DNA from: a virus
Length of the DNA: 48,217 nucleotides
IMG/VR virus record: IMGVR_UViG_3300036859_000196
Location: 1 to 48,217 of that record
Strand: one strand, 5' to 3'
Shown here: piece after piece, positions 1 to 48,217 of the stretch
How the letters are laid out: each line of letters starts with the position of its first letter
Position numbering within the stretch: position 1 is the stretch's first letter
Made by a program: the position numbers and the translations under genes
Notes under the pieces: model-generated
The model's input: the letters and a program-made list of their open reading frames with translations, nothing else
What the model was told of the DNA's origin: nothing
The model's database searches: none

Positions 1-125
1 TTACTGTGGATTGGGACCGCGACGTGATGGGCTACTCGCCCGACCGCGTCGACGCCCTGGTGTGGGCGATCACCGAACTGATGCTGGCCAACCGCGCCCG
101 CGGCGGCCTTGTGGGGACGTTCTGA
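1..125 (+). CDS. terL: Terminase large subunit, 3' terminal fragment (window-edge copy of 47403..47527)
   Basis: nt 1..127 identical to 47403..47529 and 48091..48217; stop TGA 123-125 overlaps portal ATG 125-127. Confidence 0.6.
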   Translation, partial: TVDWDRDVMGYSPDRVDALVWAITELMLANRARGGLVGTF

Positions 126-1501
126 TGCGCAAGCATGGCTTCATGTTGCGGTTGCGCACCGCCATCACGGCGTTCTGGCTCGCCAAGGCCTCCGCCGTCG
201 GCCCCCTCATCGCGCGCCTCGTCGTCGGCCGCGCCGTCTATCCCGAGCGAGACTACGCTAAGCTCGCGCAGGAGGCCTACCAGCGCAACAGCGTGGCCTC
301 GTCCGCCATCCGCATGATCGCCGAGTCAGTGGCCCAGATCCCATGGTGCATGTACTCCGGCAAGGGCGACAACCGCACAGAGATCGAGGAGCACCCGTTC
401 CTCGACCTGATGCAGTCGCCCAACCCCACGCAGGACTGGCAGTCGCTGATCACCGCACTGATCAGCAACTACAAGATCAGCGGCAACCTCTACTGCGAGC
501 GGACCGAGGAGGCGAAGATCGAGCGCATGGAGCTCTACGCGCACCGTCCCGACCGCATCACCATCGTGCCGGACGAGACCGGCGTGCCGGCGGCGTACAA
601 GTACCGCTGCGGCGGTGCCGAGCGCGACTTCGAGATCGACATCGACAAGCAGACGCGGCCGCTGCTCCACCTCAAGACGTTCAATCCGCTCAACGACTGG
701 TATGGTCAGAGCCCCCTCGATGCGTGCGCGTGGGCCATCGATCTGCACAACGGCTACTCGTCGCACAATCTGGGCCTGTTGCAGAACAGCGGCAGCCCAT
801 CGGGCGCGCTGGTATTCAGGGGTACCACGCAGGAGCCCGGCTCGCTGGACCCCGACCGGGCCGCGATCCTGCTTGCCCAGATCCGCGGCGAGGAACGCGG
901 CTACGACAAGAACGGCTCGCGAATGCTGCTCGACGGCGGCGAGTGGCAGTGGCTGCAGATGGGCCTCGATGCCGACAAGATGCAGTCGATGGAGGGCAAG
1001 AACCAGGCCGCGCGAGAGATAGCCTTCACGCTCGGCGTCCCCCCGATGCTGCTCGGCATTCCCGGTGACAACACCTATTCCAACTACCAGGAAGCGCGGC
1101 AGGCCTTCTACCAGGAGACCGTCATCCCGCTCGCGAGCATGCTGGTGCGTGCGTTCCAGCAGTGGTTCGCCAAGGCCCTCGGCAAGGGCGTGTATCTGGA
1201 GGCCAACATCGACGATCTCGACGCCCTGGCCGCAGCCCGCGCCGAGCAGTGGGACCGCATCGAGAAGTCCGAGCAGCTCACCACCAACGAGAAGCGCGAC
1301 GCCATGGGCTACGAGCCTGTCGACGGCGGCGACGTGCTGTACGTGAGCGCTGGCAAGATCCCGATCGATCAGGCGGTGGACACCTTCGAGGCCGATCAGG
1401 ACCGCGCCGACGAGGCGCTTGCGGCGAAGAAGCCGCCCAAGGTCAAGTCGGGCGGGCCGGTGTTCAAGTCGCCGCCCGTTGTCCATGAGGCAAGCGAATG
1501 A
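125..1501 (+). CDS. Portal protein (HK97-family-like)
   Basis: 458-aa ORF directly after terL; portal-like size and position; ATG 125 inside longer TTG-initiated ORF 11..1501. Confidence 0.8.
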   Translation: MRKHGFMLRLRTAITAFWLAKASAVGPLIARLVVGRAVYPERDYAKLAQEAYQRNSVASSAIRMIAESVAQIPWCMYSGKGDNRTEIEEHPFLDLMQSPNPTQDWQSLITALISNYKISGNLYCERTEEAKIERMELYAHRPDRITIVPDETGVPAAYKYRCGGAERDFEIDIDKQTRPLLHLKTFNPLNDWYGQSPLDACAWAIDLHNGYSSHNLGLLQNSGSPSGALVFRGTTQEPGSLDPDRAAILLAQIRGEERGYDKNGSRMLLDGGEWQWLQMGLDADKMQSMEGKNQAAREIAFTLGVPPMLLGIPGDNTYSNYQEARQAFYQETVIPLASMLVRAFQQWFAKALGKGVYLEANIDDLDALAAARAEQWDRIEKSEQLTTNEKRDAMGYEPVDGGDVLYVSAGKIPIDQAVDTFEADQDRADEALAAKKPPKVKSGGPVFKSPPVVHEASE

Positions 1502-5639: not shown

Positions 5640-6061
5640 TGATCCCACACGACCTTCACAACCGGCTGTCGTTCCTGCGCAGCAACGAGCCGGTCACGCT
5701 CACCAACCTCAACACGGCGCAGGTCGGCCAGATCATCGACATGGTCGACCTCATGTCGCTGGAGTACGTCATTGCCGCGGGCGCTCTGACAGACGCTGCC
5801 ATGACGCTGACGCCGCTGGTGGAGCACGGCGACGCATCGAACCTCTCGGATGCCGCAGCGGTGGACGACGTCGACCTCCTCGGCACCGAGGCTGCCGCCA
5901 TCTTCACCCAGGCGGACGACAACGCGGTGAAGACCGTTGGCTACGTCGGCACCAAGCGCTACGTGCGCCTGACGCTGACGCCTGCGGGCAACGACGCCGG
6001 CAGCGCCACTTTTGGAGCCACGGCGGTCGGCATCAAGCGCTTCCGTGGCACTGGCAACTGA
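5640..6061 (+). CDS. Hypothetical protein
   Basis: ATG 5640 inside ORF 5555..6061; co-oriented with late operon. Confidence 0.45.
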
Positions 6062-6133
6062 TGCTGTCGGACTGGCGGTCCTCCGGCCTGGTGCCGAGCA
6101 GGCCCGCCAGCCGACCCCCGCAGGTGGAGAGAA

Positions 6134-6489
6134 TGCGCTACGGCCTACCGCCAGAGCAACCCCCAGAGGCCACGATCCGCGTCCGCATGGTGAAGACCAC
6201 CAAGGCAACGCTGGATGGTGGCCGCACCGCCAAGGTCTACGAGGCCGGGCGGGACTACGATCTCCCGGAGTGGCTGGCGGAAGCGTTCTTCAAAGGTGGG
6301 GAAGGCGACCCCGCCGAGGCGCACGAGGGGCTGGACGCGGCGGGCGAACAGACTCATTCCGAGGCTGCACAAGCAGCAACGGGAGATGGAAATGACGCCA
6401 CAGGCGGCGCTGACCACGATACTGAAGCGTCTCACCCGCCTCGCCAATCGCGGCGACCGCGCGGACCTCGACGCCTTCATGGAGAGTGA
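6134..6489 (+). CDS. Hypothetical protein (frame overlaps next gene)
   Basis: Internal Met MRYGLPPEQ... of ORF 6061..6489; C-terminal half low complexity. Confidence 0.25.
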
Positions 6490-6844
6490 CGAACTTTCCA
6501 GGCTCCGGCAGTTCATTCTGCCGAAGAGCATCCCGGTGGTCGGGGCGGCGTACGACAAGGCGTTGGAGCGGATACAACTGCGCCACCGGCCGCTTGCCCC
6601 CGGAAAGCGGCGCGCGTGCTGGACGGCCGACATGGTGGCGAGGCTCAAGGCGTCCTGGGATCGCCACGGCAACCCGTACCGCGTCGCTCGCGAACTCGGC
6701 ATCACCGAGAAGGCGGCCAAGGTTGCATATCGCAAGTTTATCGAGAATGGCGCCGCGCCGCGCCAGACGCTCCAGGACGGCCGCTCAGTGGCTGGGGGCC
6801 CTACTAGCGGCCCGGTCCTGGACCCCCTGAAGCGCGCGGCGTGA
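6392..6844 (+). CDS. Hypothetical protein with HTH-like segment
   Basis: ATG 6392 with GGAG 6 nt upstream, inside ORF 6215..6844; segment PYRVARELGITEKAAKVAYRKF. Confidence 0.35.
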   Translation: MTPQAALTTILKRLTRLANRGDRADLDAFMESDELSRLRQFILPKSIPVVGAAYDKALERIQLRHRPLAPGKRRACWTADMVARLKASWDRHGNPYRVARELGITEKAAKVAYRKFIENGAAPRQTLQDGRSVAGGPTSGPVLDPLKRAA

Positions 6845-6853
6845 GGCGTTCCC

Positions 6854-7501
6854 ATGGGCCCCTCCCGCGGCAGCCTCGAACTGGTGACCGCCCCGGCAAC
6901 GGAGCCGGCCACGATTGCAGAGGCAAAGGCGCACGCCCGCATCGAGACTTCGGCCGACGATGCGCTGCTCGGCGCCTACATCACGGGGGCGCGCGAGCTG
7001 GTCGAGCGCACCACCGGCCGGGCGCTTATCACGCAGACCTGGAAGCTGACCCTCGACTGCTGGCCCGGATCGCGGGACGACGACTGGTGGGACGGCGTTC
7101 GGGAACTGCCGATCAGCTACGGCGAGGGCACCCACGTCGAGATCCGCAAGGCGCCGTTCCTGGCCATAACGTCGGTCGTGACGCTCGACGAGAGCGACAC
7201 GCCTACCACGTGGGCGTCGAGCAACTACTACGTCGACAAGCGCCACGGCTTCGGCCGGCTGATCAAGAAGCAGGGTGTGGTGTGGCCGACCATCATCGGC
7301 CGGGACTTCGGGGCGATCGTCATCGCCTTCACGGCAGGGTACGGAGCGAACGCGAGCGACGTGCCGATGGCGCTGCGGCAGTCGGTGAAGGATATCGTGG
7401 CCCACTGGTATGAGAACCGCGAGGCGGCCGCAGAGGTGAACTTCAACGAGGCGCCGATGAAGACGCGGGCGCTGCTGCAGCAATACACGGTGGCGAGGTG
7501 A
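6854..7501 (+). CDS. Head-tail connector protein (gp6-like, GTA-type)
   Basis: N-terminal ATIAEAKAHARIETSADDALLGAYITGARELVERTTGRAL typical of phage gp6 connector family. Confidence 0.65.
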   Translation: MGPSRGSLELVTAPATEPATIAEAKAHARIETSADDALLGAYITGARELVERTTGRALITQTWKLTLDCWPGSRDDDWWDGVRELPISYGEGTHVEIRKAPFLAITSVVTLDESDTPTTWASSNYYVDKRHGFGRLIKKQGVVWPTIIGRDFGAIVIAFTAGYGANASDVPMALRQSVKDIVAHWYENREAAAEVNFNEAPMKTRALLQQYTVAR

Positions 7502-7537
7502 GACGGATGAGCACGGAATGGAAGACCGATATGAGCG

Positions 7538-7600
7538 ATGAGGCCGACGGTCTACGCCGTCTCGAAGACCGCACCGGGGGCGCATAGCGCATACCGCTAA
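7538..7600 (+). CDS. 20-codon micro-ORF MRPTVYAVSKTAPGAHSAYR ending in the PGAH-x-[VA]-YR tail
   Basis: Hand translation; stop TAA 7598-7600 overlaps ATG 7600 of next gene; tail matches four larger ORFs. Confidence 0.35.
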   Translation: MRPTVYAVSKTAPGAHSAYR

Positions 7601-7971
7601 TGCCCAAGCACGCCGGCGAGCTCCGCGACCGCATCCGCATCGACCAGGACCTCGGCGCGACGGTGAACGTCATCGGCGACGCGGTGCCGGATTGGCAGCC
7701 GCTGATTACGGGCACCGACGACGGAATGATCTGGGCCAACGTCGCCCCGATGAGCGCGGGCGAGCAGTGGCGGCGTCTACAGATGAATGCGGAGGCGAAC
7801 TGGAAGGTCACGATCCGCCACCGCACGGACATAACCCCCAGGATGCGCGTCGTCTTCGGCCCGCGCGTCATGGAGATACGCGGCATCGTCAACCCCGACA
7901 TGAAGCGCCGGTTCCTCGAATTGGCCTGCGAAGAATTGGTAGCCGCCGATATAGTGGGGGCCGTGCCGTGA
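7600..7971 (+). CDS. Head closure / head-tail joining protein
   Basis: 123 aa; size, position and sequence pattern consistent with Phage_H_T_join family. Confidence 0.65.
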   Translation: MPKHAGELRDRIRIDQDLGATVNVIGDAVPDWQPLITGTDDGMIWANVAPMSAGEQWRRLQMNAEANWKVTIRHRTDITPRMRVVFGPRVMEIRGIVNPDMKRRFLELACEELVAADIVGAVP

Positions 7972-8465
7972 GGATCGCCGTCACCACGCCGCCGGACCTC
8001 GATTTCTCCGCCCTCGAAGCGGAGGCCCGCGCCGCCGTGGACCAGGCGCTCAAGGCCGGCGTGCAGATGATCGCCAACGATGCGAAGCGCGCGGTGGCAA
8101 GCGGCCCCAAGACGGGCAATATCTATACGCACTATTTCCGTACCGGCCCCAACGGCGGCGTGTTCCCGGTCGAGAAGCGCGGCGTGCCGCACCAGGCCTC
8201 CGCCCCGGGCGAGGCGCCGGCAACCGACACGGGGCGGCTGGTCAACTCCATCGTCGCCGATGCGGAGTGGACCGGCGACAGCATCACCGGCTACGTGCGT
8301 GCCGATGTGGAGTACGCGCGCTGGCTCGAATACGGCACGCGCAAGATCCTGCCGCGCCCGTTCCTGATCCCGGCGATCGAGCGCAACCGGCAGCGCATCG
8401 TCGACCTGATCCGGGTCGCATTCGCAACGGCCGCGGGGCAGTTCGCCCGCAAGGTGAGGAGATAG
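7968..8465 (+). CDS. Tail component protein, HK97 gp10 family
   Basis: GTG 7968; C-terminal EYARWLEYGTRKILPRPFLIPAIERN resembles HK97 gp10 family. Confidence 0.65.
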   Translation: MRIAVTTPPDLDFSALEAEARAAVDQALKAGVQMIANDAKRAVASGPKTGNIYTHYFRTGPNGGVFPVEKRGVPHQASAPGEAPATDTGRLVNSIVADAEWTGDSITGYVRADVEYARWLEYGTRKILPRPFLIPAIERNRQRIVDLIRVAFATAAGQFARKVRR

Positions 8466-21904: not shown

Positions 21905-22483
21905 TCACATAGGTGCGACCGAGCCCCGCCGGCCTTCGGGCTGGCGGTCGGGCGGCGCATCTCCAGGTCGCGGGCGGCCTGCATTCGGCCAATCTGCGGG
22001 ACGATGCCCGGCCAGGTACGCTTCTATGAGCTGGCGCTGCGGCGGCCTGATGCGGCGCTGGCCGGATTCCAGAGCGTAGCCGATTTGCCTGGTTGGCTTG
22101 TACCCGAGCACGCCAGCCATCTGGTCAAGGGTGAGGCCGAGCTGGTGCCGGGCCTGCCGGAAATACTCGCGAGCCTCGATCGCGTCTGCCGCGGCAGCAC
22201 CGTGCAATCCGGTCAGTGCGCGCACCTCCGTCAGCGTGGGTCGATCAAACTTGGACGTGCCTAGCACCACAAGGCCACGCTCGGGGAAGGGCCCCTCGCT
22301 GTCCTGATCCATGGCGCGGTGCGAGCCGTCGGCCATCAGCCGGTAGGACACCACGTCGCTATCTCGGTCATGGATGCTGCAGACGCCTATGCCTCTGACG
22401 GTGCACTCATCGGATGTGATGTAGAGGATTGTGCGGCCGTACCTGTCGAGAACCTGGTGCCAGGCGGTTGCTGACCGTGGCAT
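21905..22483 (-). CDS. XRE-family HTH regulator with N-terminal extension
   Basis: C-terminal GLTLDQMAGVLGY...GQRRIRPPQRQLIEAYLAGHRPADWP; paralogue of 25713..26006. Confidence 0.55.
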   Translation of the reverse strand: MPRSATAWHQVLDRYGRTILYITSDECTVRGIGVCSIHDRDSDVVSYRLMADGSHRAMDQDSEGPFPERGLVVLGTSKFDRPTLTEVRALTGLHGAAAADAIEAREYFRQARHQLGLTLDQMAGVLGYKPTRQIGYALESGQRRIRPPQRQLIEAYLAGHRPADWPNAGRPRPGDAPPDRQPEGRRGSVAPM

Positions 22484-22524
22484 GGTTGGGGTATCCTTCT
22501 TGTGTCGCCGCCCCGCACGGGACG

Positions 22525-22609
22525 GTGTTGGGTTGAAACAGAGTTACTGCCCAAACGGGCTCAGACAGTCTCCGCCCCCATGTGAGGGGTGGGTGTTGGG
22601 TTGAAACTC
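22525..22609. promoter_or_regulatory. Two direct copies of GGTGTTGGGTTGAAAC in the upstream region
   Basis: 16-bp exact repeats at 22525-22540 and 22594-22609, upstream of the minus-strand regulator. Confidence 0.35.
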
Positions 22610-22634
22610 ACTCTGATCACATACTGAGCAAAAC

Positions 22635-22662
22635 CCCAGCCTCGTGGTTGGGGTTTTGTGTT
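22635..22662 (-). terminator. Hairpin with T/U-run downstream of the minus-strand gene
   Basis: AAAACCCCAGCC..GGTTGGGGTTTT inverted repeat just after stop of 22664..23062. Confidence 0.3.
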
Positions 22663-22663
22663 G

Positions 22664-23062
22664 TCAGCGCCGGCCGCCGTGAAGCGCGATCTCGTCGTCG
22701 TGCTCGTCGTCGTAAGAGTTGCGGGCGCGCGGCTTGCGGTAGGCACCCTCGCGCTTCAGGCTCTCCTTGATGTGGCGGGACACCTCGGCTTTGTAGCCGT
22801 CCAGCAGCTCACGTACGCCAGCAAGGTGCTCTGCCGGCACGCCGATGCGGATGCCATCGGTGTACAGCTTGAGATGCGGACCGTCGGCATGTTGCTCGAT
22901 GAGGTCAACGCCGCAGCCGTACCGCCTGCCATTGAGTGTGATGCGCAGATCGTGGCAGGGCACCTTGACGTTATGGTCGATATCCAACTCGCGCTCGGTG
23001 ATGATTTGCAGCGACACATCGGCGCCGCGGGCGGTCTTGAAGCTGATCTGTTGCATCGTCAT
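22664..23062 (-). CDS. Hypothetical protein
   Basis: ATG 23062 with AGAGGGA RBS inside ORF 22664..23146. Confidence 0.5.
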   Translation of the reverse strand: MTMQQISFKTARGADVSLQIITERELDIDHNVKVPCHDLRITLNGRRYGCGVDLIEQHADGPHLKLYTDGIRIGVPAEHLAGVRELLDGYKAEVSRHIKESLKREGAYRKPRARNSYDDEHDDEIALHGGRR

Positions 23063-23218
23063 CGTCCCTCTATGTGTCTCGATGAGCTGACTATCGCTGA
23101 TTTGTGCATGTAACACAAGCGTATTACGTGATGCGCGGCATGTCAAGCCTTAAAGCGTACATTTCCGTTCCTTCGGGCTTGGGTTCGATGGTTCATCGGG
23201 GAATGGGGAATTATATAC

Positions 23219-23247
23219 TTGACGTACTGACCTTGAGCGTCTACATT
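23219..23247 (+). promoter_or_regulatory. Sigma70-like promoter inside the left inverted repeat
   Basis: TTGACG, 17-nt spacer, TACATT upstream of transposase start. Confidence 0.4.
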
Positions 23248-23275
23248 GGCGGTCATGAGATCAGGGGATGCCGCC

Positions 23276-24202
23276 ATGAACCTCACCAATTCGATTTTCC
23301 AGGACGCCGAGAAGGCCCGCGAGTTTCTTGAGGCTCAGCGTTGGCCGGATGGTCCCATTTGCCCCCACTGCGGCGTTATCGCTGACGCCACCAAACTCGC
23401 CGGCAAGAGCACGCGAGCTGGCGTCTACAAGTGCAAGTCTTGCGAGAAGCCTTTCACCGTCACGGTCGGCACCGTATTCGAGCGCTCAAAGATCCCACTC
23501 AACAAGTGGTTGCTGGCGACGTTTCTGCTCACGGCTTCCAAGAAGGGAATGAGCAGCCACCAGATCCACCGTAGTCTGGAGGTTACTTACAAGACCGCTT
23601 GGTTCATGACCCATCGCATCCGCGAGGCCATGCGTGACATCAATGCCGGCCCCATCGGTGGCGAGGGCGGCGACCTGGAGAGCGACGAAACTTACATCGG
23701 CGGCAAGGCCAAGAACGCCCACAAGGGCAAGCCCGAGCCGAAGAAGCATGCCGTGCATGCCCTTGTGGAGCGCGGCGGTCGTGTGCGCGCCACCCATGTC
23801 GCCGACGTGACCGCCAGGACGTTGCGCTCGGTCATGGAGAAGCACGCAGACAAGCGTTCTACGCTTCATACGGACGACGGCCTCACGGGCTTGTCCATTG
23901 GCAAGGACTTCGCCGGCAGCACAACCGTCAACCACAGCGCTGGCGAGTATCACCGCTACAAGGACGGCGCCGGCATCCAATCTGCCGAGAGCTTCTTTGC
24001 GATCCTGAAGCGGCAGGTCTACGGAACGCACCACGCGATCAGCGAGGCGCATCTGCAGCGCTATGTGACGGAAGCCACCTTCAAGTGGAACCACCGCATT
24101 GCGCTGGGCGTGGACGACACCGGCCGCGCCAAGGCTGCTCTCAAGTCCATCGGCGGCAAGCGTTTGACCTATGGGACGATTCGTGGAGCCCAGAACGCCT
24201 AA
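23276..24202 (+). CDS. IS1595-family transposase (ISXO2-like DDE)
   Basis: N-terminal zinc ribbon RWPDGPICPHCG...YKCKSCEKPFTVTVGTVFERSKIPLNKWL then LEVTYKTAWFMTHRIREAM. Confidence 0.85.
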   Translation: MNLTNSIFQDAEKAREFLEAQRWPDGPICPHCGVIADATKLAGKSTRAGVYKCKSCEKPFTVTVGTVFERSKIPLNKWLLATFLLTASKKGMSSHQIHRSLEVTYKTAWFMTHRIREAMRDINAGPIGGEGGDLESDETYIGGKAKNAHKGKPEPKKHAVHALVERGGRVRATHVADVTARTLRSVMEKHADKRSTLHTDDGLTGLSIGKDFAGSTTVNHSAGEYHRYKDGAGIQSAESFFAILKRQVYGTHHAISEAHLQRYVTEATFKWNHRIALGVDDTGRAKAALKSIGGKRLTYGTIRGAQNA

Positions 24203-24500
24203 GCAGAAAGATCGGCGGCGACGCTGCCGATAGTCCCGCTTATCGGCTGCCACCGAATCGTGTCATGAGCCCCATTGCGGCGTTTCTGAGCCAAACGACT
24301 GCGGGAACAATGGGGCTGAGCACGACGGGGATCGTAGCTACACGGACACCTAGATAGGACGCAAAGACAAGCCTTGCGAGGCGGTCTTTGGCGTCCTGCT
24401 CGTCGTGGGCGCGGATCTCGAACTGCCAGACCTTGCCACCGTGGTTGTAGCGGAACAGGTGCGTCTGCATATCGTCAACAACACCAAGAGGTGTGAACAC

Positions 24501-24663
24501 CATGTATGCCGAGATATGGAAGAGCGCGCTGAATGGCCTTTGGTACTGGCACATCCGCAGCGGCAACCATGAGATCGTGAGCCAGAGCGAGGGCTACACG
24601 ACTAAGACTGCAGCTCTCCACGGACTGCGGCTGATCTTCGACGGTCCTGCCTACGACCGCTAA
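24501..24663 (+). CDS. DUF1508 (YegP-like) small protein, IS passenger
   Basis: Hand-translated 53 aa MYAEIWKSALNGLWYWHIRSGNHEIVSQSEGYTTKTAALHGL...; AAGAGG RBS. Confidence 0.5.
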
Positions 24664-24701
24664 CCCAGGAGACAGGAGACCAAGGGGCTCGCTGGCGAGC
24701 A

Positions 24702-24920
24702 TCACCCCTTGGCTCCCTTCCCAGACGAACGGGGGTCGCGCTTCGGCGCGGCCCCTTTCGTTTTCTCTGCTTTATCGACCGGCTTATGCGGTTTGTGAGG
24801 CGTACTGAGCATGCGACGAATCGTGCGCTCAAACTGCTGAGCGTCAATCCCGCCTTTCGCCTCAGTATCTGCCGTACCACGCTTCGGCATCAGACTGTGA
24901 ACCACCTTCAATTTCGACAT
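24702..24920 (-). CDS. Small Lys-rich basic protein, IS passenger
   Basis: Internal Met MSKLKVVHSLMPKRG... of ORF 24702..25118. Confidence 0.3.
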   Translation of the reverse strand: MSKLKVVHSLMPKRGTADTEAKGGIDAQQFERTIRRMLSTPHKPHKPVDKAEKTKGAAPKRDPRSSGKGAKG

Positions 24921-25371
24921 CGATGCGCCCCCAAGAATCTGATGAGTCCAGGGGGGCACGGGGCGTGGGGCCGGCGTAGTGCGGCTGCTGGGCTTCCCAT
25001 CCGGGCGGCCGTGGGTGCAAATCCCACCGGCTCCAGCGCCCCGTGTATCGTCAACCGTTGCATGCAGCTCTGCTGCGTGCAAGCGGGCTATTTGTGCTCT
25101 GACTCGGTAAGCAAGCACTTAACGCCGCATGGCCTCAGTGGTTGCATCGCTCGTCCCCTCGCTTGCCAGCCCGCGCTTCGCGCCGGGCGGTCCCTACCAA
25201 GCTACCGGTTAGTCTCTAGAGCTACCGATGGTGCTTGACTGCCACGATTCGCGGTGGAAGCAAGAGCTTGAAAATTTCACGAATCACTTATTCCGCGAAC
25301 GTGGAATCGATTGGCAACAGTACGTCAAGTATATAATTCCCGGGGAATGGCTGGTGCCGGTACAGGCGGCG

Positions 25372-25701
25372 TCAATCTGCCGCTTGCGCCTCTATGGCGG
25401 CAAGAAAGCCGCCGAGCGCGGAGTATAGTGCGTAGCCGGCGGTCGGGCCTCCCGTAGCGAACCCCAGCCGATTATGGAGCGCACGTAGCCGCTCCAAGGC
25501 GTCTCTCGGGTACTCCGCCTCCCATCCGCCGTTGTAGAATGAGCGGACTGTCCGCACGTCGGTCCTAATGGACTTGCCGGTATAGCTCTGGTCGGGAAAC
25601 CCTGATCCCGTTGGTACCGGCGACACGTGGCTCAGCGTCTCTGTCACTGATGCGCACACGACCATGTAGTCGTGGCGCAGATTGTCGAATGTCGTTATCA
25701 T
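25372..25701 (-). CDS. Hypothetical protein
   Basis: 109-aa ORF directly downstream of HTH gene 25713..26006. Confidence 0.45.
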   Translation of the reverse strand: MITTFDNLRHDYMVVCASVTETLSHVSPVPTGSGFPDQSYTGKSIRTDVRTVRSFYNGGWEAEYPRDALERLRALHNRLGFATGGPTAGYALYSALGGFLAAIEAQAAD

Positions 25702-25712
25702 CGGCCTTTCTC

Positions 25713-26006
25713 CTATCTCTTGGCGGGCAACCTATCCCGCATTTTCTCCATGCACTCGGGGGCCGAAGCCGGCCGCAATGCTTTCGGGGTGCAGACAGCG
25801 AGCAGCTCCGGCCAATCCCCCGGGCGATAGCCGGCGAGGTATGCTGCGACTAGGCGGCGCTGTGCTGGTCTGATCCCACGACGGCCATTCTCCATGTGGT
25901 GTACCTGAGACTTGGCCTGCTCGCCCTCGTATCCCAGCATCATCGCCATCTGCTCAAAAGTAAGGCCCAGATCGCGCCGGGCCCGCTTGAATTCGTCGGG
26001 GGTCAT
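25713..26006 (-). CDS. XRE-family HTH regulator
   Basis: GLTFEQMAMMLGY...ENGRRGIRPAQRRLVAAYLAGYRPGDWP. Confidence 0.6.
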   Translation of the reverse strand: MTPDEFKRARRDLGLTFEQMAMMLGYEGEQAKSQVHHMENGRRGIRPAQRRLVAAYLAGYRPGDWPELLAVCTPKALRPASAPECMEKMRDRLPAKR

Positions 26007-26215
26007 GACTCAGCCGTAGCGGCGGGCCAGCGCGTTGCCCACTCCAGGTCGGGCAAGTCGCCGCTGTCGTCGAGCAGGAACGGCTGCATCGCGATTGTCG
26101 CCCGCGCCTTCACGAGGTCGCAGACGTTGTTGCCGTCGGCAAGCTCGTTGAGCACTTGGCACATGGCGTCTGCCAGTGCCTCAACGTGTGCTTCTGTCGG
26201 TCGCTGCATGCTCAT
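26003..26215 (-). CDS. Hypothetical protein
   Basis: 70-aa ORF, ATGA-coupled to neighbour. Confidence 0.4.
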   Translation of the reverse strand: MSMQRPTEAHVEALADAMCQVLNELADGNNVCDLVKARATIAMQPFLLDDSGDLPDLEWATRWPAATAES

Positions 26216-26265
26216 GGGGCGGGCTCCTTCGTGATGTGGGCGCTGATGATATCAAGGATGGTGGG

Positions 26266-26484
26266 TCATTCCGGCCTCCGAGCACTGGCGATAATGGCGT
26301 CAATCGCCCTGTCAAGCTGGTCGGCGAGATCATCGTTCCGCCCATCCGGGTCGTGCTCGGCCCAAGCAGCTACTGCCGACTCTATCTCACGCTCTACCCG
26401 TCGACGCTCGTCGGCGTCGACAATTGCGGCTACGCGGGCCTTGATTGCTTTCTGGTCGAAGCTGTTCAGATGCGAAATGTCCAT
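26266..26484 (-). CDS. Hypothetical acidic protein
   Basis: 72-aa ORF in minus-strand operon. Confidence 0.4.
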   Translation of the reverse strand: MDISHLNSFDQKAIKARVAAIVDADERRRVEREIESAVAAWAEHDPDGRNDDLADQLDRAIDAIIASARRPE

Positions 26485-26539
26485 TCCGGTTCTCCCTGCA
26501 AAAGAAAAATGGCCGCACCCCGAAGGATGCGGCCCGATC

Positions 26540-26800
26540 TCAGTGTGAGAAGCCCGTCTCCCAGCACCGGGAGCCGTCGCCGCGGGTCACATACTCGCCG
26601 CACTCGGGGCATCCGTAGCGGCGGCCCTTGCGGGCATTGCCGCTGGAGTGACTGTGATCCTCGCTGATCGAAACCAGGCTGAGGTCCACCCAGAATTCCT
26701 TGCTCCCGTCCCAGAATTGGAGCTTGGCCTTCTCCCCGAACTTGGTCTTGCCCGACCAAGCCAGCTTGTACTTGCGACCCTTGTAAGTAGCGACTTGCAT
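26540..26800 (-). CDS. Hypothetical protein with C-terminal zinc-ribbon-like CPEC...C motif
   Basis: 86-aa ORF, lower GC. Confidence 0.4.
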   Translation of the reverse strand: MQVATYKGRKYKLAWSGKTKFGEKAKLQFWDGSKEFWVDLSLVSISEDHSHSSGNARKGRRYGCPECGEYVTRGDGSRCWETGFSH

Positions 26801-26894
26801 TTTTGAACCCCTAGGAAGGAGCGGCTGACAATGATCAATATACTTTCGCGGTCACAGAAAGCCAAGGACGACGAACGGAGGGGCGCCGATCACA

Positions 26895-26921
26895 TTGTTG
26901 TGACTTCTGAAGTCACAACAA
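26895..26921. promoter_or_regulatory. Perfect 27-bp palindrome (13-bp arms), operator candidate
   Basis: TTGTTGTGACTTC-T-GAAGTCACAACAA about 20 bp upstream of the RHH gene. Confidence 0.5.
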
Positions 26922-26941
26922 ATCAGCGACGATTTGCAGCG

Positions 26942-27145
26942 ATGGCGACGACCACACGAAAGCGCATGGGGCGGCCCCCGAAGCCGCCGGAGGCCCGGAT
27001 GATCGATGTCGGTCTGCGGCTCGATCCTGGGACGCATGCAACGGTCACCGCCATGGCGGTTGAGCGCGGCATTGAGCGGGCTGCGATGATCCGCGAATTG
27101 TTGGCGGAGGCGCTCGCTGCGCGGGCGAAGAGGGATAAGAGATGA
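26942..27145 (+). CDS. Ribbon-helix-helix (CopG-like) DNA-binding protein
   Basis: RKRMGRPPK...LRLDPGTHATVTAMAVERGIERAAMIRELLAEAL. Confidence 0.5.
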   Translation: MATTTRKRMGRPPKPPEARMIDVGLRLDPGTHATVTAMAVERGIERAAMIRELLAEALAARAKRDKR

Positions 27146-27157
27146 CCAGTCGTCGCC

Positions 27158-27405
27158 ACATCCGCGAGGCCATGCGTGACATCAATGCCGGCCCCATCGG
27201 TGGCGAGGGCGGCGACCTGGAACGCACCACGCGATCAGCGAGGCGCATCTGCAGCGCTATGTGACGGAAGCCACCTTCAAGTGGAACCACCGCATCGCGC
27301 TTGGCGTAGACGATACTGCTCGTGCCAAGGCCGCTCTCAAGTCCATTGGCGGCAAGCGCTTGACGTACGGGACAACTCGTGGAGCCCAGAACGCCTAAGC
27401 AGCGG
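27158..27405 (+). pseudogene. Internally deleted remnant of the IS1595 transposase gene
   Basis: Near-identical to 23618-23691 joined to 24035-24207 (343-bp internal deletion); no inverted repeats nearby. Confidence 0.7.
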
Positions 27406-30985: not shown

Positions 30986-31035
30986 TGGCGGTCCCGGCAG
31001 GGCTTGAACCCGCAACCTCCGCGTTCGAAGCGCGG
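30986..31035 (-). other. attP core: 3' ~50-nt fragment of a tRNA-Arg(UCG)-like gene
   Basis: Minus strand reads anticodon stem-loop CCGCG-CTTCGAA-CGCGG, T-arm GCGGG-TTCAAGC-CCTGC, acceptor 3' strand, CCA; no D-arm or 5' acceptor strand. Confidence 0.55.
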
Positions 31036-31120
31036 CCACACGGCGCCACATGTGTGATTTTGCTGGGGTTTTTCGCGCGCATCGTCGTCCAAATCGCCCG
31101 CTCTTCGCATTTCGTTCTCG

Positions 31121-31936
31121 CTAGGTCGGTTCACATGAACCGACCAACGTCCGCGTATCCGAGAAGCGGGGGGGGGCCGCAGGGGTGCTGGCGAGTTCAC
31201 CCACCATCCACTTCGCGGCATCGGCCTTGATCTGCTCGAACACGACGGGGTGCTGGCTCTTGAAGTCCGGCATGCGCGACGACGCCACGTATCCCTGCGC
31301 GGTCGCGTCGAGCCAAATCTGCGTCCAGCGCGCCGCGTCGAGTCCGAGCAGTTTGAAGTCGCGTCGCGTCACGGGTCTCCGCTCCAGAATGGCAACGATC
31401 TTGAGCGCCTTGATCTTCCACGCCGTCAGTTGGACCGGGGCACTATGGCCGGCGCCGCTGTCGGGGACATAGTCAGGGAGGGCGACCCGCTTCACCGGGC
31501 ACCACTCGTGCCAATGTCGGTCATCGCCCCAGCGCTCGGCGACGTGCGGCAGATCGGGTTCGAACCTGCGGCGGTAGACCCGCTCGGACGGTGGCCATAT
31601 CGTTATCACAGTGAGTCCGAGCCAGTTGCAGATCGTGCCGAGCCCGTTCTGCTTTCCTCCTTCTGGCACCAGCACGGCACGACAATCCGGGCCGATCTCG
31701 GCGGCTCCGTACCAACGTTCGGGCAGCGCCTGCACCGCCACCGTGTTGTTGAGGATGAGCTTGGCCTCGATGCCAATCTGGAAGCCGTCTTCCCTGCGAA
31801 CGAGCAGGATGTCCCAGCCGCCAGTCTCGGCATACGCAACCCAGGCGTCACCCTTTGTGACCTGCGTGATGAACTCGGCGCAGAGCGCGACCTCGCTCTC
31901 GAAACCGGGCTTGCGGGATCGCTTCGTGGCCGTCAT
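31121..31936 (-). CDS. Hypothetical protein with PD-(D/E)xK nuclease-like motif
   Basis: Starts at ATG overlapping integrase stop; motif DILLVRREDGFQIGIEAKL; G9 tract encodes PPP near C-terminus. Confidence 0.45.
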   Translation of the reverse strand: MTATKRSRKPGFESEVALCAEFITQVTKGDAWVAYAETGGWDILLVRREDGFQIGIEAKLILNNTVAVQALPERWYGAAEIGPDCRAVLVPEGGKQNGLGTICNWLGLTVITIWPPSERVYRRRFEPDLPHVAERWGDDRHWHEWCPVKRVALPDYVPDSGAGHSAPVQLTAWKIKALKIVAILERRPVTRRDFKLLGLDAARWTQIWLDATAQGYVASSRMPDFKSQHPVVFEQIKADAAKWMVGELASTPAAPPRFSDTRTLVGSCEPT

Positions 31937-33039
31937 TCCCTGCCCCGCTTGTCCTCGATCGCCTTCGGCTCCCGCAGCGACAGCGCATTCGCCGCGCGCT
32001 GCAGGTAGTCCGGGTGGAAGCGCGCATAGACGCGCTCGGTGATCGCCGTGGAAGTGTGGCCCATGTACTGGCTGATCTCCGCCATTGGCAGCCGGGCCTG
32101 GGCCATCCAGACACCGGCGGTGTGGCGGAGCACGTAGGGTGTGACATCGTCGAGCTTGGCGCGGCGTGCGGCAGCCACGATGGCCTGGCGCACGCCCTGG
32201 CGGCCAGTGATGGGAGCCTCGTTGTACTCGATTACCCACTCGGTCTGAGCCATCTCGCGCGCCAGCTTTAGCGTCTCATAGGCCTCCTCATTGAGCGGCA
32301 CGCGAGCGCGGCCCTTGCGGGTGGCATCGCGCTCCGGGTCGTCGAGGTTCACGTGACCGAAGTAGGTGACCCCGCTCTGGGGGTGCGTCCACTTCTTGAG
32401 CGTGACGCGGTCCCATGTGAGCTGCAGGATGTGGCTCGGCCGGCCGGCGGTGGCGAACGCCAGCTGCAGCCACACCTTGACGTGGAACGCCTTGGCGGCG
32501 TCGATCAGTCGGACGGCCTCAGCCTTGGTCAACCACCGCTCACGCGGCCGGGCTGCCGGCGGGCGCTCGATCTCCGGACGGTCGCCTGAATAGAGCTTCT
32601 TCCGCTTGCCAAAGCCGAGCGCCGCAGAGAGATAAACCAGCTCGGACCGGATGCCGCCGTTCGACACCCCATGACCGCGCCGATGCCTGGCATAGGCCCG
32701 GCAGGTGGTGTCCTCGATCTGGTCCGGCATCAGGTGCCCGAAGTGTGATGCCATCGGTTTCCAGGCCTCGCGCATGCGGCGCGCGTCCTTGCCGACCGCC
32801 TCGCGGTCCTTGACGTACAGGTCGTAGATCGAGGCCATGGCAACCGCCTTCCCGTCTTTCCCCTGGCGCTGTGCCTCGGAGAGGCCGCTGTTCCAGCGCG
32901 CTACCTCGCGGTCAGCATCCGGCCGATTGCCCGTTGTCGCTTTGATGCCGAGCGCATGGCGCTGTTTGCTGCGTCCATGCCCCCAGACGACGCACCAGAC
33001 GCCGCGGTGTCGTCCGCGCCTGTAGACTTGATCCCCCAT
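31933..33039 (-). CDS. int: Tyrosine integrase
   Basis: N-terminal RGVWCVVWGHGRSKQRHALG arm-type region; C-terminal VLRHTAGVWMAQA...YMGHTSTAITERVYARF catalytic region. Confidence 0.85.
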   Translation of the reverse strand: MGDQVYRRGRHRGVWCVVWGHGRSKQRHALGIKATTGNRPDADREVARWNSGLSEAQRQGKDGKAVAMASIYDLYVKDREAVGKDARRMREAWKPMASHFGHLMPDQIEDTTCRAYARHRRGHGVSNGGIRSELVYLSAALGFGKRKKLYSGDRPEIERPPAARPRERWLTKAEAVRLIDAAKAFHVKVWLQLAFATAGRPSHILQLTWDRVTLKKWTHPQSGVTYFGHVNLDDPERDATRKGRARVPLNEEAYETLKLAREMAQTEWVIEYNEAPITGRQGVRQAIVAAARRAKLDDVTPYVLRHTAGVWMAQARLPMAEISQYMGHTSTAITERVYARFHPDYLQRAANALSLREPKAIEDKRGRE

Positions 33040-33233
33040 CGCACCAGCAACGCCTCCAGATCCTCGCGCCTCACGCGCACCATGCCGTCGATCCGAACCA
33101 CGGGTAGGCCCGTGCCGGGTTGATCCTTCTCGCGCTCGATCAGCGCGTAGACCTTGCTCTTCGAGCAATCGAGCTCCCGCGCGACGCTGCGGACCGAGAG
33201 AAGACGCGGCGGCAGAACTGCGGTGTCGGTCAT
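32901..33233 (-). CDS. xis: Excisionase / AlpA-like HTH protein
   Basis: LLSVRSVARELDCSKSKVYALIE...LPVVRIDGMVRVRREDLEALL; 3' end overlaps int start. Confidence 0.5.
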   Translation of the reverse strand: MTDTAVLPPRLLSVRSVARELDCSKSKVYALIEREKDQPGTGLPVVRIDGMVRVRREDLEALLVRWGIKSTGADDTAASGASSGGMDAANSAMRSASKRQRAIGRMLTAR

Positions 33234-33451
33234 GGCCCCGCCCTCTCATAGACCCGCGCCAGCTCGGCCCGCGTATAGGCCCCGTCGTAGCGGTCGCTCG
33301 CGGCGTCGACGACCCGGCAGCCCGCCTCGAATTCACGCATCTCGCGGCGGTGCATCCACCACAGCATCGCAAGGCCGCCAGCGAGACCGACGACGCAGCC
33401 GACGAGGCCGCCAAGGGCGCCGACGGCGAGAAGGATCGGATCGAAAGTCAT
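33230..33451 (-). CDS. Small membrane protein
   Basis: Hydrophobic N-terminus ILLAVGALGGLVGCVVGLAGGLAMLWW. Confidence 0.4.
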   Translation of the reverse strand: MTFDPILLAVGALGGLVGCVVGLAGGLAMLWWMHRREMREFEAGCRVVDAASDRYDGAYTRAELARVYERAGP

Positions 33452-48044: not shown

Positions 48045-48217
48045 CACCACGTCGGCACCTTCAAGGCGCTCGAAGATCAGCAAACTGACTTTACTGTGGA
48101 TTGGGACCGCGACGTGATGGGCTACTCGCCCGACCGCGTCGACGCCCTGGTGTGGGCGATCACCGAACTGATGCTGGCCAACCGCGCCCGCGGCGGCCTT
48201 GTGGGGACGTTCTGATG
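48045..48217 (+). repeat. 173-bp direct repeat, copy C (terL 3' end remnant)
   Basis: Identical to 47357..47529; continues as window 1..127. Confidence 0.85.

What the first reader, a model, noticed from the sequence alone, without database searches (positions are those of the whole stretch)
23198..25349. IS1595-family element with perfect 24-bp inverted repeats, 8-bp target duplication and passenger genes
GGGAATTATATACTTGACGTACTG occurs at 23206-23229 and inverted at 25318-25341, bracketed by the direct repeat GGGGAATG. The element is 2136 bp, about twice a minimal IS, because ~1.1 kb of passenger DNA lies between the transposase stop and the right repeat, including a DUF1508/YegP-like ORF. 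The left repeat carries a TTGACG-17-TACATT promoter. The insertion sits in the middle of a minus-strand accessory operon and could decouple or re-drive gene 22664..23062.
Basis: seen in the sequence. Interest (0 to 1): 0.5.

Follow-up and report, generated by a model that had tools for sequence, protein, structure and literature searches.

The report
Transposon in phage carrying tRNA-like gene
A 2.1-kb jumping gene of a known family (IS1595) has recently landed in a temperate phage genome, and its extra DNA holds a conserved small-protein gene and a previously unlisted RNA gene shaped like an alanine tRNA.

Summary
A perfect 24-bp inverted repeat (23206-23229 / 25318-25341) is flanked by the 8-bp duplication GGGGAATG. 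It encloses an intact IS1595-family transposase, with a zinc ribbon and residues D137, D200, E238 and K245.

The whole 2,136 bp moves as one unit. A copy 86% identical over its full length, with identical repeats and a different 8-bp duplication, sits in an unrelated phage contig. Six further relatives also have their own 8-bp duplications.

The 1.1 kb of "passenger" DNA has structure of its own:
- two small genes shared by the sub-lineage (a 76-aa ORF and DUF1508);
- a small basic protein gene with an RMLxTPPKPH motif, found in 28 of 39 distant relatives;

The RNA has a cloverleaf inside an outer helix. It keeps an invariant GGGG/CUCC acceptor with G3:U70 and A73, and 19 pairs show compensatory changes. 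It is 91% conserved against about 70% at neutral sites. It resembles the tRNA-like domain of tmRNA but fails the tRNA and tmRNA thresholds.

The transposon is an ordinary member of a known kind. The conserved RNA cargo is the new part, and its function is unknown. No empty site was found, and effects on the phage operon are untested.

The parts
23198..23205 (.). Left copy of the 8-bp target-site duplication GGGGAATG
   Evidence: Read. It is identical to 25342-25349. The chance of such a match is 1 in 65,536.
23206..23229 (+). Left terminal inverted repeat (IRL) GGGAATTATATACTTGACGTACTG. It contains the -35 hexamer TTGACG at 23219-23224.
   Evidence: The same 24 nt end the L083 copy and form the left end of L001. 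The family consensus is GGnAATTATATACTTGAC.
23219..23247 (+). Putative transposase promoter TTGACG-17-TACATT, with the -35 inside IRL
   Evidence: A -10-like hexamer at the same spacing occurs in 21 of 43 left ends but only 2 of 43 right ends of related elements. This is a motif only; expression was not tested.
23276..24202 (+). Transposase gene, 308 aa: N-terminal zinc ribbon (C29, C32, C53, C56) plus a DDE domain (D137, D200, E238, K245)
   Evidence: These residues are invariant in 21 relatives of 47-92% identity. Compared with L083 there are 78 synonymous and 25 non-synonymous codon changes.
24240..24470 (-). orf76: a conserved small protein with a hydrophobic C-terminus and no family match
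   Evidence: It was called as a gene in L082, L083, L164, L193 and the P0005 context. It is 90% identical at the amino-acid level in L083 and 43% in L164. No Pfam, NCBIfam, PHROG or PADLOC hit.
24502..24663 (+). DUF1508 (YegP-like) gene, 53 aa, preceded by the ribosome-binding site AAGAGG
   Evidence: Pfam PF07411, E 2.4e-9. It holds the same position in L083, L164, L193 and the P0005 context.
24680..24766 (+). Two hairpins followed by a T-run: a terminator-like end of the transposase/DUF1508 transcription unit. It overlaps the 3' coding end of the small ORF on the other strand.
   Evidence: The terminator scan found 24731-24756 plus a T-run. Only weak resemblance to alphaproteobacterial sRNAs, far below their thresholds. 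91% identical to L083.
24702..24890 (-). Small basic protein gene with the motif ERTIRRMLSTPHKPHKP. It is 62 aa from Met at 24890; an upstream ATG at 24920 would give 72 aa.
   Evidence: Homologues occur in 28 of 39 delimited distant elements and in L083, L164, L165, L168, L193, L194 and L196. There is an in-frame 9-nt indel relative to L083. L083 lacks the upstream ATG. No Pfam, NCBIfam or PADLOC hit.
24955..25048 (+). tRNA-like RNA gene resembling the tmRNA tRNA-like domain. An outer helix (24957-24965 with 25037-25045) encloses a cloverleaf at 24967-25035. The acceptor is GGGGCCG/CGGCUCC with G3:U70 and A73. The loop is CUUCCCA and the T-loop is UGCAAAU.
   Evidence: Rfam tRNA scores 19.7 bits against a threshold of 29. 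Relatives match the two ends of the tmRNA model at 33-38 bits, E 1e-10 to 1e-12. RNAalifold predicts 34 pairs. In 10 copies inside elements, 90.7% of cells are paired and 19 pairs have compensatory changes, with 0 of 500 shuffles reaching this and slid controls at no more than 48%. The + strand folds at -64.1 kcal/mol (z -4.9) and the - strand at -50.9 (z -2.9). It is 91% identical to L083.
25055..25086 (+). Conserved hairpin just after the tRNA-like RNA, with an invariant UUGC/GCAA base and a variable interior
   Evidence: The segment 25049-25100 is 92% identical to L083. Support is modest, from five sequences.
25161..25317 (.). Poorly conserved spacer before the right repeat
   Evidence: 64-71% identity to L083, about the same as transposase third codon positions at 72%.
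25318..25341 (-). Right terminal inverted repeat (IRR)
25342..25349 (.). Right copy of the target-site duplication GGGGAATG
   Evidence: Read.

Best explanation
An intact, recently inserted IS1595-family 'transporter IS' of 2,136 bp sits in an intergenic spot of the leftward early operon of a complete temperate siphophage genome. The site is 22 bp after the stop of gene 25372..25701 and about 135 bp before gene 22664..23062.

Shown:
- A zinc-ribbon/DDE transposase gene lies between perfect 24-bp ends flanked by an 8-bp target duplication.
- The whole unit, extra DNA included, transposes as one piece.
- The extra DNA carries four conserved features: orf76 and DUF1508 (specific to the sub-lineage), a small basic 'RMLxTPPKPH' protein gene (family-wide), and next to it, on the opposite strand, a structured tRNA-like RNA gene.

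Inferred:
- The transposase is transcribed from a promoter whose -35 lies in the left repeat. It binds both ends and inserts the element by DDE chemistry with staggered 8-bp cuts.
- The small basic protein is an element-encoded accessory or regulatory factor, not cargo.
- The RNA adopts a tRNA L-shape. Its invariant G1-G4/C69-C72, G3:U70 and A73 are the alanine identity set shared by tRNA-Ala and tmRNA. It is therefore most likely recognised by tRNA-handling proteins (RNase P, AlaRS, possibly SmpB or EF-Tu). It may act as a mimic or decoy that benefits the mobile elements and phages carrying it. This last step is speculation.
For: Ends, duplication and domains.

Catalytic and zinc residues are invariant in 21 relatives.

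Mobility as a unit:
- L083 5952-8073 is 86% identical from end to end, has identical repeats and the duplication GAACAATC, and lies between capsid and portal genes of another phage contig.
- Further relatives have their own 8-bp duplications: L001 CTATACAA, L164 GATGTGAG, L165 CCCGGCTA, L168 AAAAACTC, L193 GCTAGTCT, L196 AGCGGAAC.
- About 20 IMG/VR elements also show their own duplications.

Purifying selection: transposase 78 synonymous against 25 non-synonymous changes; repeats 100% identical; RNA block 91-92%; neutral spacer 64-71%.

Small ORF: 28 of 39 distant elements plus all 8 close relatives examined.

RNA:
- Present in 7 of 8 elements whose transposase is at least 70% identical. In all 7 it lies just upstream of the small ORF on the opposite strand.
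- Present in three distant elements, L017, L072 and L031. In L031 the module is inverted and about 1 kb separates the RNA from the small ORF.
- Covariation is strong.
- The match to the tmRNA tRNA-like domain has E 1e-10 to 1e-12.
- D-loop UAGU goes with T-loop UGC and UGGU goes with UUC, consistent with the G18/U55 tertiary contact (alignments).
- The + strand is more stable.

Published work records that IS1595-family elements can carry passenger genes ('transporter IS', tIS): PMC3129680 and PMC7986276, both citing Siguier et al. 2009.
Against: - No empty site of this phage was found, so the date and reversibility of the insertion are unknown.
- No expression data exist for any part.
- The RNA fails the curated thresholds for tRNA (19.7 against 29 bits) and tmRNA (33-38 against 47), and ARAGORN calls nothing.
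- Its D-stem has only 2 pairs and position 37 is not a purine in the window copy.
- The alignments used for pair counts were fitted to the model, and true tRNA-Ala genes already score 26-38 bits with it. The three distant copies at 40-49 bits are therefore only modestly above background.
- The RNA is absent from most distant relatives and from L194. It is sub-lineage cargo, not a family-wide transposition component.
- The ISNwi1 subgroup assignment rests on a remembered ISfinder consensus, not on a database comparison.
Confidence: 0.85

Rival explanations
1. The extra 1.1 kb is accidental cargo. On this view the tRNA-like stretch is a decaying pseudo-tRNA picked up from a host or phage tRNA-Ala/tRNA-Gly region and has no function of its own.
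For: It fails the tRNA threshold and ARAGORN. Most distant family members lack it. Similar alanine-acceptor tRNA-like sequences occur elsewhere in viral contigs, so a source for capture exists.
Against: The block is 91-92% identical between copies whose neutral sites are about 64-72% identical. Nineteen pairs change on both sides while staying paired, and the first four acceptor pairs, including G3:U70, are invariant. Its position and orientation relative to the small ORF are kept in 7 close and 2 distant elements (L017, L072) and preserved as an inverted module in L031.
Confidence: 0.12
2. The conserved block 24955-25100 is protein-coding, as an N-terminal extension of the small ORF (the 138-aa frame 24702..25118, minus strand), and is not an RNA gene.
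For: The minus-strand frame is open across the block in the window, L083, L164 and L165.
Against: A 1-nt indel relative to L083 changes the frame over the block, so the translated sequences differ: GAGAGGICTHG in the window against EPVGLAPT in L083. L168 has a stop before the block. L083 lacks the upstream ATG. The substitutions are compensatory for base pairing, not biased to third codon positions. 'GIEP'-type peptides are the usual product of reading a T-arm on the antisense strand.
Confidence: 0.03
3. The RNA acts only in cis for the element. It could be an RNase P/RNase Z processing site, a stabiliser, or an antisense regulator of the divergent small-ORF mRNA, tuning transposition. On this view it is not a trans-acting tRNA or tmRNA mimic.
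For: It lies 30-65 nt from the start of the small ORF, on the opposite strand. Any small-ORF promoter further right would therefore give a 5' UTR antisense to it. The outer helix pairs the leader with the trailer, as in processed precursors. In 19 of 39 relatives the same slot holds a roughly 200-aa protein gene instead.
Against: A purely cis role does not explain strict invariance of the alanine identity set (G1-G4, G3:U70, A73) while pairs 5-7 covary. Similar RNAs occur outside these elements.
Confidence: 0.25
4. The 24-bp repeats are not transposon ends. They would instead be a phage feature, such as an invertible segment or recombination sites, that happens to bracket a domesticated transposase.
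For: No empty site was recovered.
Against: The same ends bracket the same unit in unrelated phage and chromosomal contexts, each time with a new 8-bp direct repeat. Relatives of the transposase number at least 7,983.
Confidence: 0.01

Closest known systems
IS1595 family, ISNwi1-type elements with passenger genes ('transporter IS', tIS; Siguier, Gagnevin and Chandler 2009, as cited in PMC3129680 and PMC7986276)
   Same: Zinc-ribbon plus ISXO2-like DDE transposase. Terminal repeats that begin GGnnATTAT, which matches the ISNwi1 end consensus as I remember it. 8-bp duplication. A single transposase ORF followed by extra genes inside the ends.
   Different: The extra DNA here is not a variable passenger. 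It includes a small-protein gene conserved across the lineage and a structured tRNA-like RNA gene. I know of no description of an RNA gene in these elements and found none in the held literature. The host replicon is a phage genome.
tRNA-like domain of tmRNA (Rfam RF00023) and tRNA-Ala
   Same: Acceptor stem GGGGnnn/nnnCUCC with G3:U70, discriminator A73 and often a following CC. A 5-bp T-arm with UUCGAUU in most copies. A reduced D region with a GG (or AG) loop. The tmRNA model aligns to both ends with E 1e-10 to 1e-12.
   Different: The RNA is only about 70 nt. It has no mRNA-like reading frame and no pseudoknots. The middle is a short anticodon-like hairpin, with loop CUUCCNA in most copies. 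A 9-10-bp outer helix extends the acceptor stem. It scores below both families' thresholds and ARAGORN finds nothing.
Phage-encoded tRNA genes and tRNA mimics (functional analogy only, from general knowledge)
   Same: A tRNA-shaped RNA carried by mobile DNA that ends up in phage genomes.
   Different: Here the RNA rides on a transposon, is not a canonical decoder, and no target system is known. The analogy is a lead and was not tested.
DUF1508 / YegP family (Pfam PF07411)
   Same: The 53-aa ORF passes the Pfam threshold over a single repeat.
   Different: It has a single short copy of the domain, and the family itself has no known function.
IS1 family
   Same: A weak match of the N-terminal zinc-binding region (NCBIfam transpos_IS1, 22 bits), consistent with the published IS1-IS1595 relationship.
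   Different: The score is far below the cutoff of 100. There is a single ORF without frameshifting, and the ends and duplication length differ.

Membership tests
IS1595 family insertion sequence | Transposase with an N-terminal zinc ribbon and an ISXO2-like DDE domain | tested here: met
   PF12760 E 7e-12; PF12762 E 1.3e-28; NF033547 at 159.9 bits against a cutoff of 75.
IS1595 family insertion sequence | Intact catalytic D, D, E (+K) and four zinc-binding Cys | tested here: met
   D137, D200, E238, K245 and C29, C32, C53, C56 are invariant in 21 aligned relatives.
IS1595 family insertion sequence | Terminal inverted repeats flanked by an 8-bp target duplication | tested here: met
   24/24 repeat and GGGGAATG on both sides.
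IS1595 family insertion sequence | Independent copies at other sites with different duplications, showing mobility | tested here: met
   L083, L001, L164, L165, L168, L193 and L196 each have their own 8-bp duplication.
ISNwi1 subgroup (with passenger genes) | End sequence ggnnatTAT and extra genes between the transposase and the right repeat (consensus recalled from ISfinder, not held here) | tested here: inconclusive
   The ends GGGAATTAT fit the remembered consensus, and 43 related elements share GGnAATTATATAC. No ISfinder comparison was possible.
tRNA (Rfam RF00005; ARAGORN) | Score at or above the curated threshold, or detection as a tRNA gene | tested here: not met
   19.7 bits against 29. 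ARAGORN finds none in the window or in L083, L164, L165, L168, L017, L031, L059, L072.
tRNA (Rfam RF00005; ARAGORN) | Cloverleaf helices supported by covariation | tested here: met
   Acceptor, anticodon-like and T helices: 90.7% of cells paired and 19 compensatory pairs, with controls at no more than 48%. The D-stem has only 2 pairs.
tmRNA (Rfam RF00023) | tRNA-like domain: GGGG.../...CUCCACCA acceptor with G3:U70, plus a T-arm | tested here: met
   Relatives L164, L165 and L168 align to both model ends with E 1e-10 to 1e-12. G3:U70 is present in 10 of 10 copies. The window copy has a non-canonical T-loop.
tmRNA (Rfam RF00023) | mRNA-like tag reading frame and pseudoknots; score at or above the threshold | tested here: not met
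   About 310 model positions are missing. Scores are 33-38 bits against 47. ARAGORN finds no tmRNA.
DUF1508 (PF07411) | Pfam gathering score | tested here: met
   37.4 bits against 22.
Known anti-phage defence systems (PADLOC) | Any cargo protein matching a defence model | tested here: not met
   No hit for orf76, DUF1508, the small ORF, or five of the roughly 200-aa partner proteins.

The most novel reading that the evidence does not exclude
A lineage of IS1595-family transposons, and some phages independently, carries a previously undescribed class of about 70-nt RNA genes that mimic the alanine-accepting tRNA-like domain of tmRNA and tRNA-Ala. Each is paired with a small basic protein gene. 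The RNA would be charged by AlaRS or bound by SmpB/EF-Tu. It would then act in trans on trans-translation, decoding, or tRNA-targeting immunity, giving the transposon a selectable payload that it delivers into phage genomes.
Probability: 0.3. Interest if true: 0.75.

Novelty: new variant of a known kind. Interest (0 to 1): 0.55.

Why it matters
The transposon itself is routine: another IS1595-family element with extra genes. Two things make it more than that.

First, it sits in a complete, circularly assembled temperate phage. A near-copy sits in a second phage and a related element in a third phage-like contig. This lineage therefore moves between bacterial chromosomes and phage genomes.

Second, its cargo includes a covariation-supported RNA that keeps exactly the nucleotides which make tRNA-Ala and tmRNA substrates for alanyl-tRNA synthetase. 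Current tRNA, tmRNA and Rfam detectors all miss it. If it is charged, or binds the trans-translation machinery, it would be a new kind of mobile translational mimic.

The family-wide small 'TPPKPH' protein would also be a candidate accessory factor of IS1595-type transposition.

Tried and rejected
Searches that led nowhere:
- Empty site or related phages. Megablast of the element and of window 1-21000 against phages and plasmids gave no match. tblastn of both flanking proteins against phages gave none. The same proteins in IMG/VR gave none. The empty-site DNA pattern gave none in IMG/VR or in JGI metagenomes.
- Exact look-ups of the flanking proteins. These found only L082, a 3.1-kb contig identical to the window with the same insertion.
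- The exact repeat in one-genome-per-species contigs. This gave one related, non-identical element, L001.
- Family libraries. Pfam, NCBIfam, PHROGs and PADLOC gave nothing for orf76, the small ORF, or the roughly 200-aa partner family.
- Literature. Searches for a tRNA-like or tmRNA-like RNA in insertion sequences found nothing relevant. The IS reviews I wanted are not in the held library.

Ideas tested and rejected:
- A remnant of the partner gene in the window's non-coding part. A profile search of the six-frame translation found nothing.
- A coding explanation for the conserved RNA block.
- A tmRNA or true tRNA identity for the RNA.
- An inward promoter in the right repeat. It is poor here, with TCCACG as the candidate -10, and such a -10 is rare across the family.

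The resemblance of 24680-24761 to the sRNAs SorY, mmgR and BjrC68 is far below their thresholds. I treat that stretch as a terminator region.
Full report
**1. The observation**

The 24-nt sequence GGGAATTATATACTTGACGTACTG lies at 23206-23229. Its exact reverse complement lies at 25318-25341. With up to three mismatches allowed, these are the only two matches in the window, and shuffles gave none. GGGGAATG lies directly outside both arms, at 23198-23205 and 25342-25349. The unit is 2136 bp.

The only long ORF, 23276-24202 on the + strand (308 aa), matches Zn_ribbon_IS1595 and DDE_Tnp_IS1595. It also matches NCBIfam transpos_IS1595 at 159.9 bits against a cutoff of 75. In an alignment with 20 relatives of 47-92% identity, several residues are invariant. 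These are four cysteines (C29, C32, C53, C56) and D137, D200, E238 and K245. The enzyme therefore looks intact.

**2. The surroundings**

The window is a complete contig with a 127-bp terminal overlap, so it is a circular assembly. It encodes a portal protein, a head-morphogenesis protein, a major head protein, a tape-measure protein and a tail-fibre protein. It also encodes a tyrosine integrase at 31936-33414 on the minus strand. It is therefore a temperate siphophage.

The element lies in a run of small minus-strand genes. It sits 22 bp after the stop of 25372..25701 and about 135 bp before the start of 22664..23062. No reading frame is interrupted. The element is 60.0% G+C against 65.5% for the rest of the genome.

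**3. Does it move, and as what unit?**

I could not find an empty site or any close relative of this phage. The only other record of the locus is L082, a 3.1-kb contig with the same insertion.

A transposase 92% identical (P0002) lies in L083, a different phage-like contig, between capsid and head-tail connector genes. There the whole element, 5952-8073, aligns end to end at 86% identity. It has identical 24-bp repeats and a different duplication, GAACAATC.

Elements with transposases 69-72% identical are also bounded by matching repeats and their own 8-bp duplications:

| Locus | Duplication |
|---|---|
| L164 | GATGTGAG |
| L165 | CCCGGCTA |
| L168 | AAAAACTC |
| L193 | GCTAGTCT |
| L196 | AGCGGAAC |

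So is L001 in a Pseudolabrys genome bin, with CTATACAA.

Among 80 IMG/VR relatives of 42-60% identity, I delimited 38 elements. Their repeat consensus is GGnAATTATATACTTGACAAAG, and about 20 have clean 8-bp duplications. Their lengths are 1.9-4.6 kb. Only one, L041 at 1155 bp, is a bare insertion sequence.

This meets every family criterion I could test. It fits what the literature calls a transporter IS, an IS1595-family element with passenger genes (PMC3129680 and PMC7986276, both citing Siguier et al. 2009). The ISNwi1 subgroup label rests on my memory of its end consensus (ggnnatTAT). I could not check it here.

**4. The promoter claim**

TTGACG-17-TACATT at 23219-23247 is one of only two promoter-like sites in 22400-27000. 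Across 43 elements I looked for a -10-like hexamer 16-18 nt after the repeat's TTGAC. It follows in 21 left ends but only 2 right ends. The right ends serve as a built-in control, because they carry the same -35.

The motif is therefore conserved where a transposase promoter should be. Expression itself is untested.

**5. The extra 1.1 kb**

Comparing the window with L083 gives a scale for selection:

| Region | Identity or change |
|---|---|
| Transposase | 78 synonymous, 25 non-synonymous codon changes; third positions 72% identical |
| Last 157 nt before the right repeat | 64-71% identical (about neutral) |
| Terminal repeats | 100% identical |

Four features stand out against that background.

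(a) orf76 (24240-24470, minus strand) is 93% identical at the nucleotide level. It recurs at the same place in L083, L164, L193 and the P0005 context.

(b) DUF1508 (24502-24663, + strand) has a good ribosome-binding site and recurs in the same elements.

(c) A small basic protein gene lies at 24702-24890 on the minus strand. L083 lacks the upstream ATG at 24920. Its motif is (F)xxT(I/L)(K/R)RML(x)TP(P/H)KPH.
- Homologues occur in 28 of 39 distant elements and in all eight close relatives examined.
- An in-frame 9-nt indel relative to L083 fits a coding region.
- No library names it.
- A gene kept across transposases as different as 42-92% identity is better read as an accessory gene of the element than as cargo. 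That reading is an inference.

(d) A conserved non-coding block covers 24955-25100 and is 91-92% identical.

In 19 of 39 distant elements, the slot next to the small ORF holds a roughly 200-aa protein with an R-N-x3-H motif. That protein has no Pfam or PADLOC match. The window has no remnant of it.

**6. The conserved block is a tRNA-shaped RNA**

On the + strand, 24967-25035 forms a cloverleaf:
- an acceptor stem GGGGCCG/CGGCUCC with a G3:U70 wobble pair;
- the discriminator base A;
- a 5-bp T-arm;
- an anticodon-like hairpin with loop CUUCCCA;
- a reduced D region.

A 9-bp outer helix, CACGGGGCG/CGCCCCGUG, extends the acceptor stem.

*Database scores.* Rfam gives only a sub-threshold tRNA match, 19.7 bits against 29. 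ARAGORN finds nothing. In L164, L165 and L168 the T-loop is the canonical UUCGAUU. There the Rfam tmRNA model aligns to both of its ends, the tRNA-like domain, at 33-38 bits (E 1e-10 to 1e-12). About 310 internal model positions are absent.

*Covariation.* RNAalifold on five copies found by homology predicts 34 pairs, nine of them with compensatory changes. A covariance model built from these finds the RNA in L193 and L196. That makes 7 of 8 elements with transposases at least 70% identical; L194 lacks it. The model also finds it inside three distant elements: L017, L072 and L031. The module is inverted in L031, where about 1 kb separates the RNA from the small ORF.

On the ten copies inside elements:
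- 90.7% of cells are paired, against 44-48% when partners are slid;
- 19 pairs change on both sides;
- no shuffle out of 500 reaches any measure;
- the first four acceptor pairs, including G3:U70, never vary, while pairs 5-7 and the first two T-stem pairs covary.

*Other support.*
- D-loop UAGU goes with T-loop UGC (window, L083, L016). UGGU goes with UUC (six others). This is what the G18-U55 tertiary contact would predict (alignments).
- The + strand folds at -64.1 kcal/mol (z -4.9). The minus strand folds at -50.9 (z -2.9).
- A coding explanation fails. The minus-strand frames over the block differ between the window and L083, and L168 has a stop there.

*Cautions.*
- The pair counts use model-fitted alignments.
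- True tRNA-Ala genes score 26-38 bits with this model, so the three distant copies at 40-49 bits are only modestly above that.
- The loop sequence is not constant. It is UCC-like in most copies, ACC in L164 and AUG in L196.

**7. What the RNA does is unknown**

G1-G4/C69-C72 with G3:U70 and A73 is the set of alanine identity elements shared by tRNA-Ala and tmRNA. That statement is established knowledge and was not tested here. Its strict invariance, next to freely covarying neighbours, suggests selection for recognition by AlaRS or other tRNA-binding proteins.

My ranking of readings:
1. A trans-acting mimic or decoy of tRNA-Ala or the tmRNA tRNA-like domain, useful to the mobile DNA that carries it.
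2. A cis-acting processing, stability or antisense element for the adjacent small-ORF transcript.
3. A decaying captured tRNA. The selection evidence contradicts this one.

Alanine-acceptor tRNA-like sequences that ARAGORN does not call as tRNA-Ala also occur in viral contigs without this transposase. They are L178 (which ARAGORN calls tRNA-Ser), L183, L182, L173, L174, L185, L016 and L059. The RNA class may therefore be wider than this transposon lineage.

**8. Effect on the phage**

The insertion is intergenic. I found no outward-facing promoter. On the minus strand the internal hairpin at 24731-24756 lacks a T-run, so polarity cannot be predicted. Gene 22664..23062 has a weak candidate promoter of its own: TTGACA-17-TACGCT at 23146-23118 on the minus strand, read.

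**9. Verdict**

The added value is threefold:
- the extra DNA is a conserved module;
- it includes an RNA gene that no detector lists;
- this lineage repeatedly lands in phage genomes (the window, L083, L168).

Relatives of the transposase are annotated in genome bins of Hyphomicrobiaceae, Rhodomicrobium and Pseudolabrys. This points to an alphaproteobacterial host.

Noticed in passing
window 30989-31047 (-) and 31936-33414 (-): The only Rfam hit above threshold in the window (tRNA, 30.8 bits) is a 59-nt 3' part of a tRNA: anticodon arm, T-arm and acceptor strand. ARAGORN does not call it. It lies about 0.9 kb from a tyrosine integrase gene, so it is probably the attP core of this temperate phage.
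   Followed up: partly
window 1-127 and 48091-48217: A 127-bp direct overlap of the contig ends shows that the window is a circularly assembled, complete phage genome of about 48.1 kb.
   Followed up: yes
window 22484-22663: Two direct repeats of GGGTGTTGGGTTGAAAC lie at 22519-22539 and 22587-22607. Each is preceded by a G+C-rich hairpin. They sit in the intergenic region just downstream of gene 22664..23062, before a terminator-like hairpin at 22629-22658. Their function is unknown.
   Followed up: no
L002 6597-7277, L005 6661-7185, L013 4627-5214 and 16 other related elements: A family of roughly 170-250-aa proteins with a conserved R-N-x3-H motif (reminiscent of HEPN Rx4-6H) lies divergent from the small TPPKPH gene in 19 of 39 related transposons. 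In the window that slot holds the tRNA-like RNA. The family has no Pfam or PADLOC match.
   Followed up: partly
L178 9435-9530 (-); L183 2315-2392; L182 7068-7138; L173 558-630; L174 7778-7855; L185 5364-5435; L016 2235-2303; L059 6098-6166: tRNA-like sequences with the alanine-type acceptor GGGGnnn/nnnCUCCA occur in viral contigs without an adjacent IS1595 transposase. ARAGORN does not call them tRNA-Ala. L178, which ARAGORN calls tRNA-Ser, also has the outer helix and scores 55.6 bits with the model.
   Followed up: partly
L168 3432-5384 (Logan SRR14092395): A related element (transposase 70% identical, with the tRNA-like RNA) is also inserted in a phage-like operon of small minus-strand genes, near an AcrVA2-like gene. 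This is a third phage context for the lineage.
   Followed up: partly
L082 (window 24070-27188): An independent Logan assembly (SRR11829739) has the identical insertion, but its contig breaks inside the transposase gene. This hints at several transposase variants or copies in that sample.
   Followed up: no
window 25228-25428 (+): A 66-aa ORF reads from inside the element across the right repeat into phage DNA, and a gene caller called it in L082. It is probably an artefact, but it would be a fusion frame created by the insertion.
   Followed up: no
L194 3001-5500; L077 2913-5464: Some relatives carry different cargo between the transposase and the small TPPKPH gene: a roughly 270-aa protein plus a PIN-domain protein. 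This shows modular exchange of cargo around a constant small gene.
   Followed up: no
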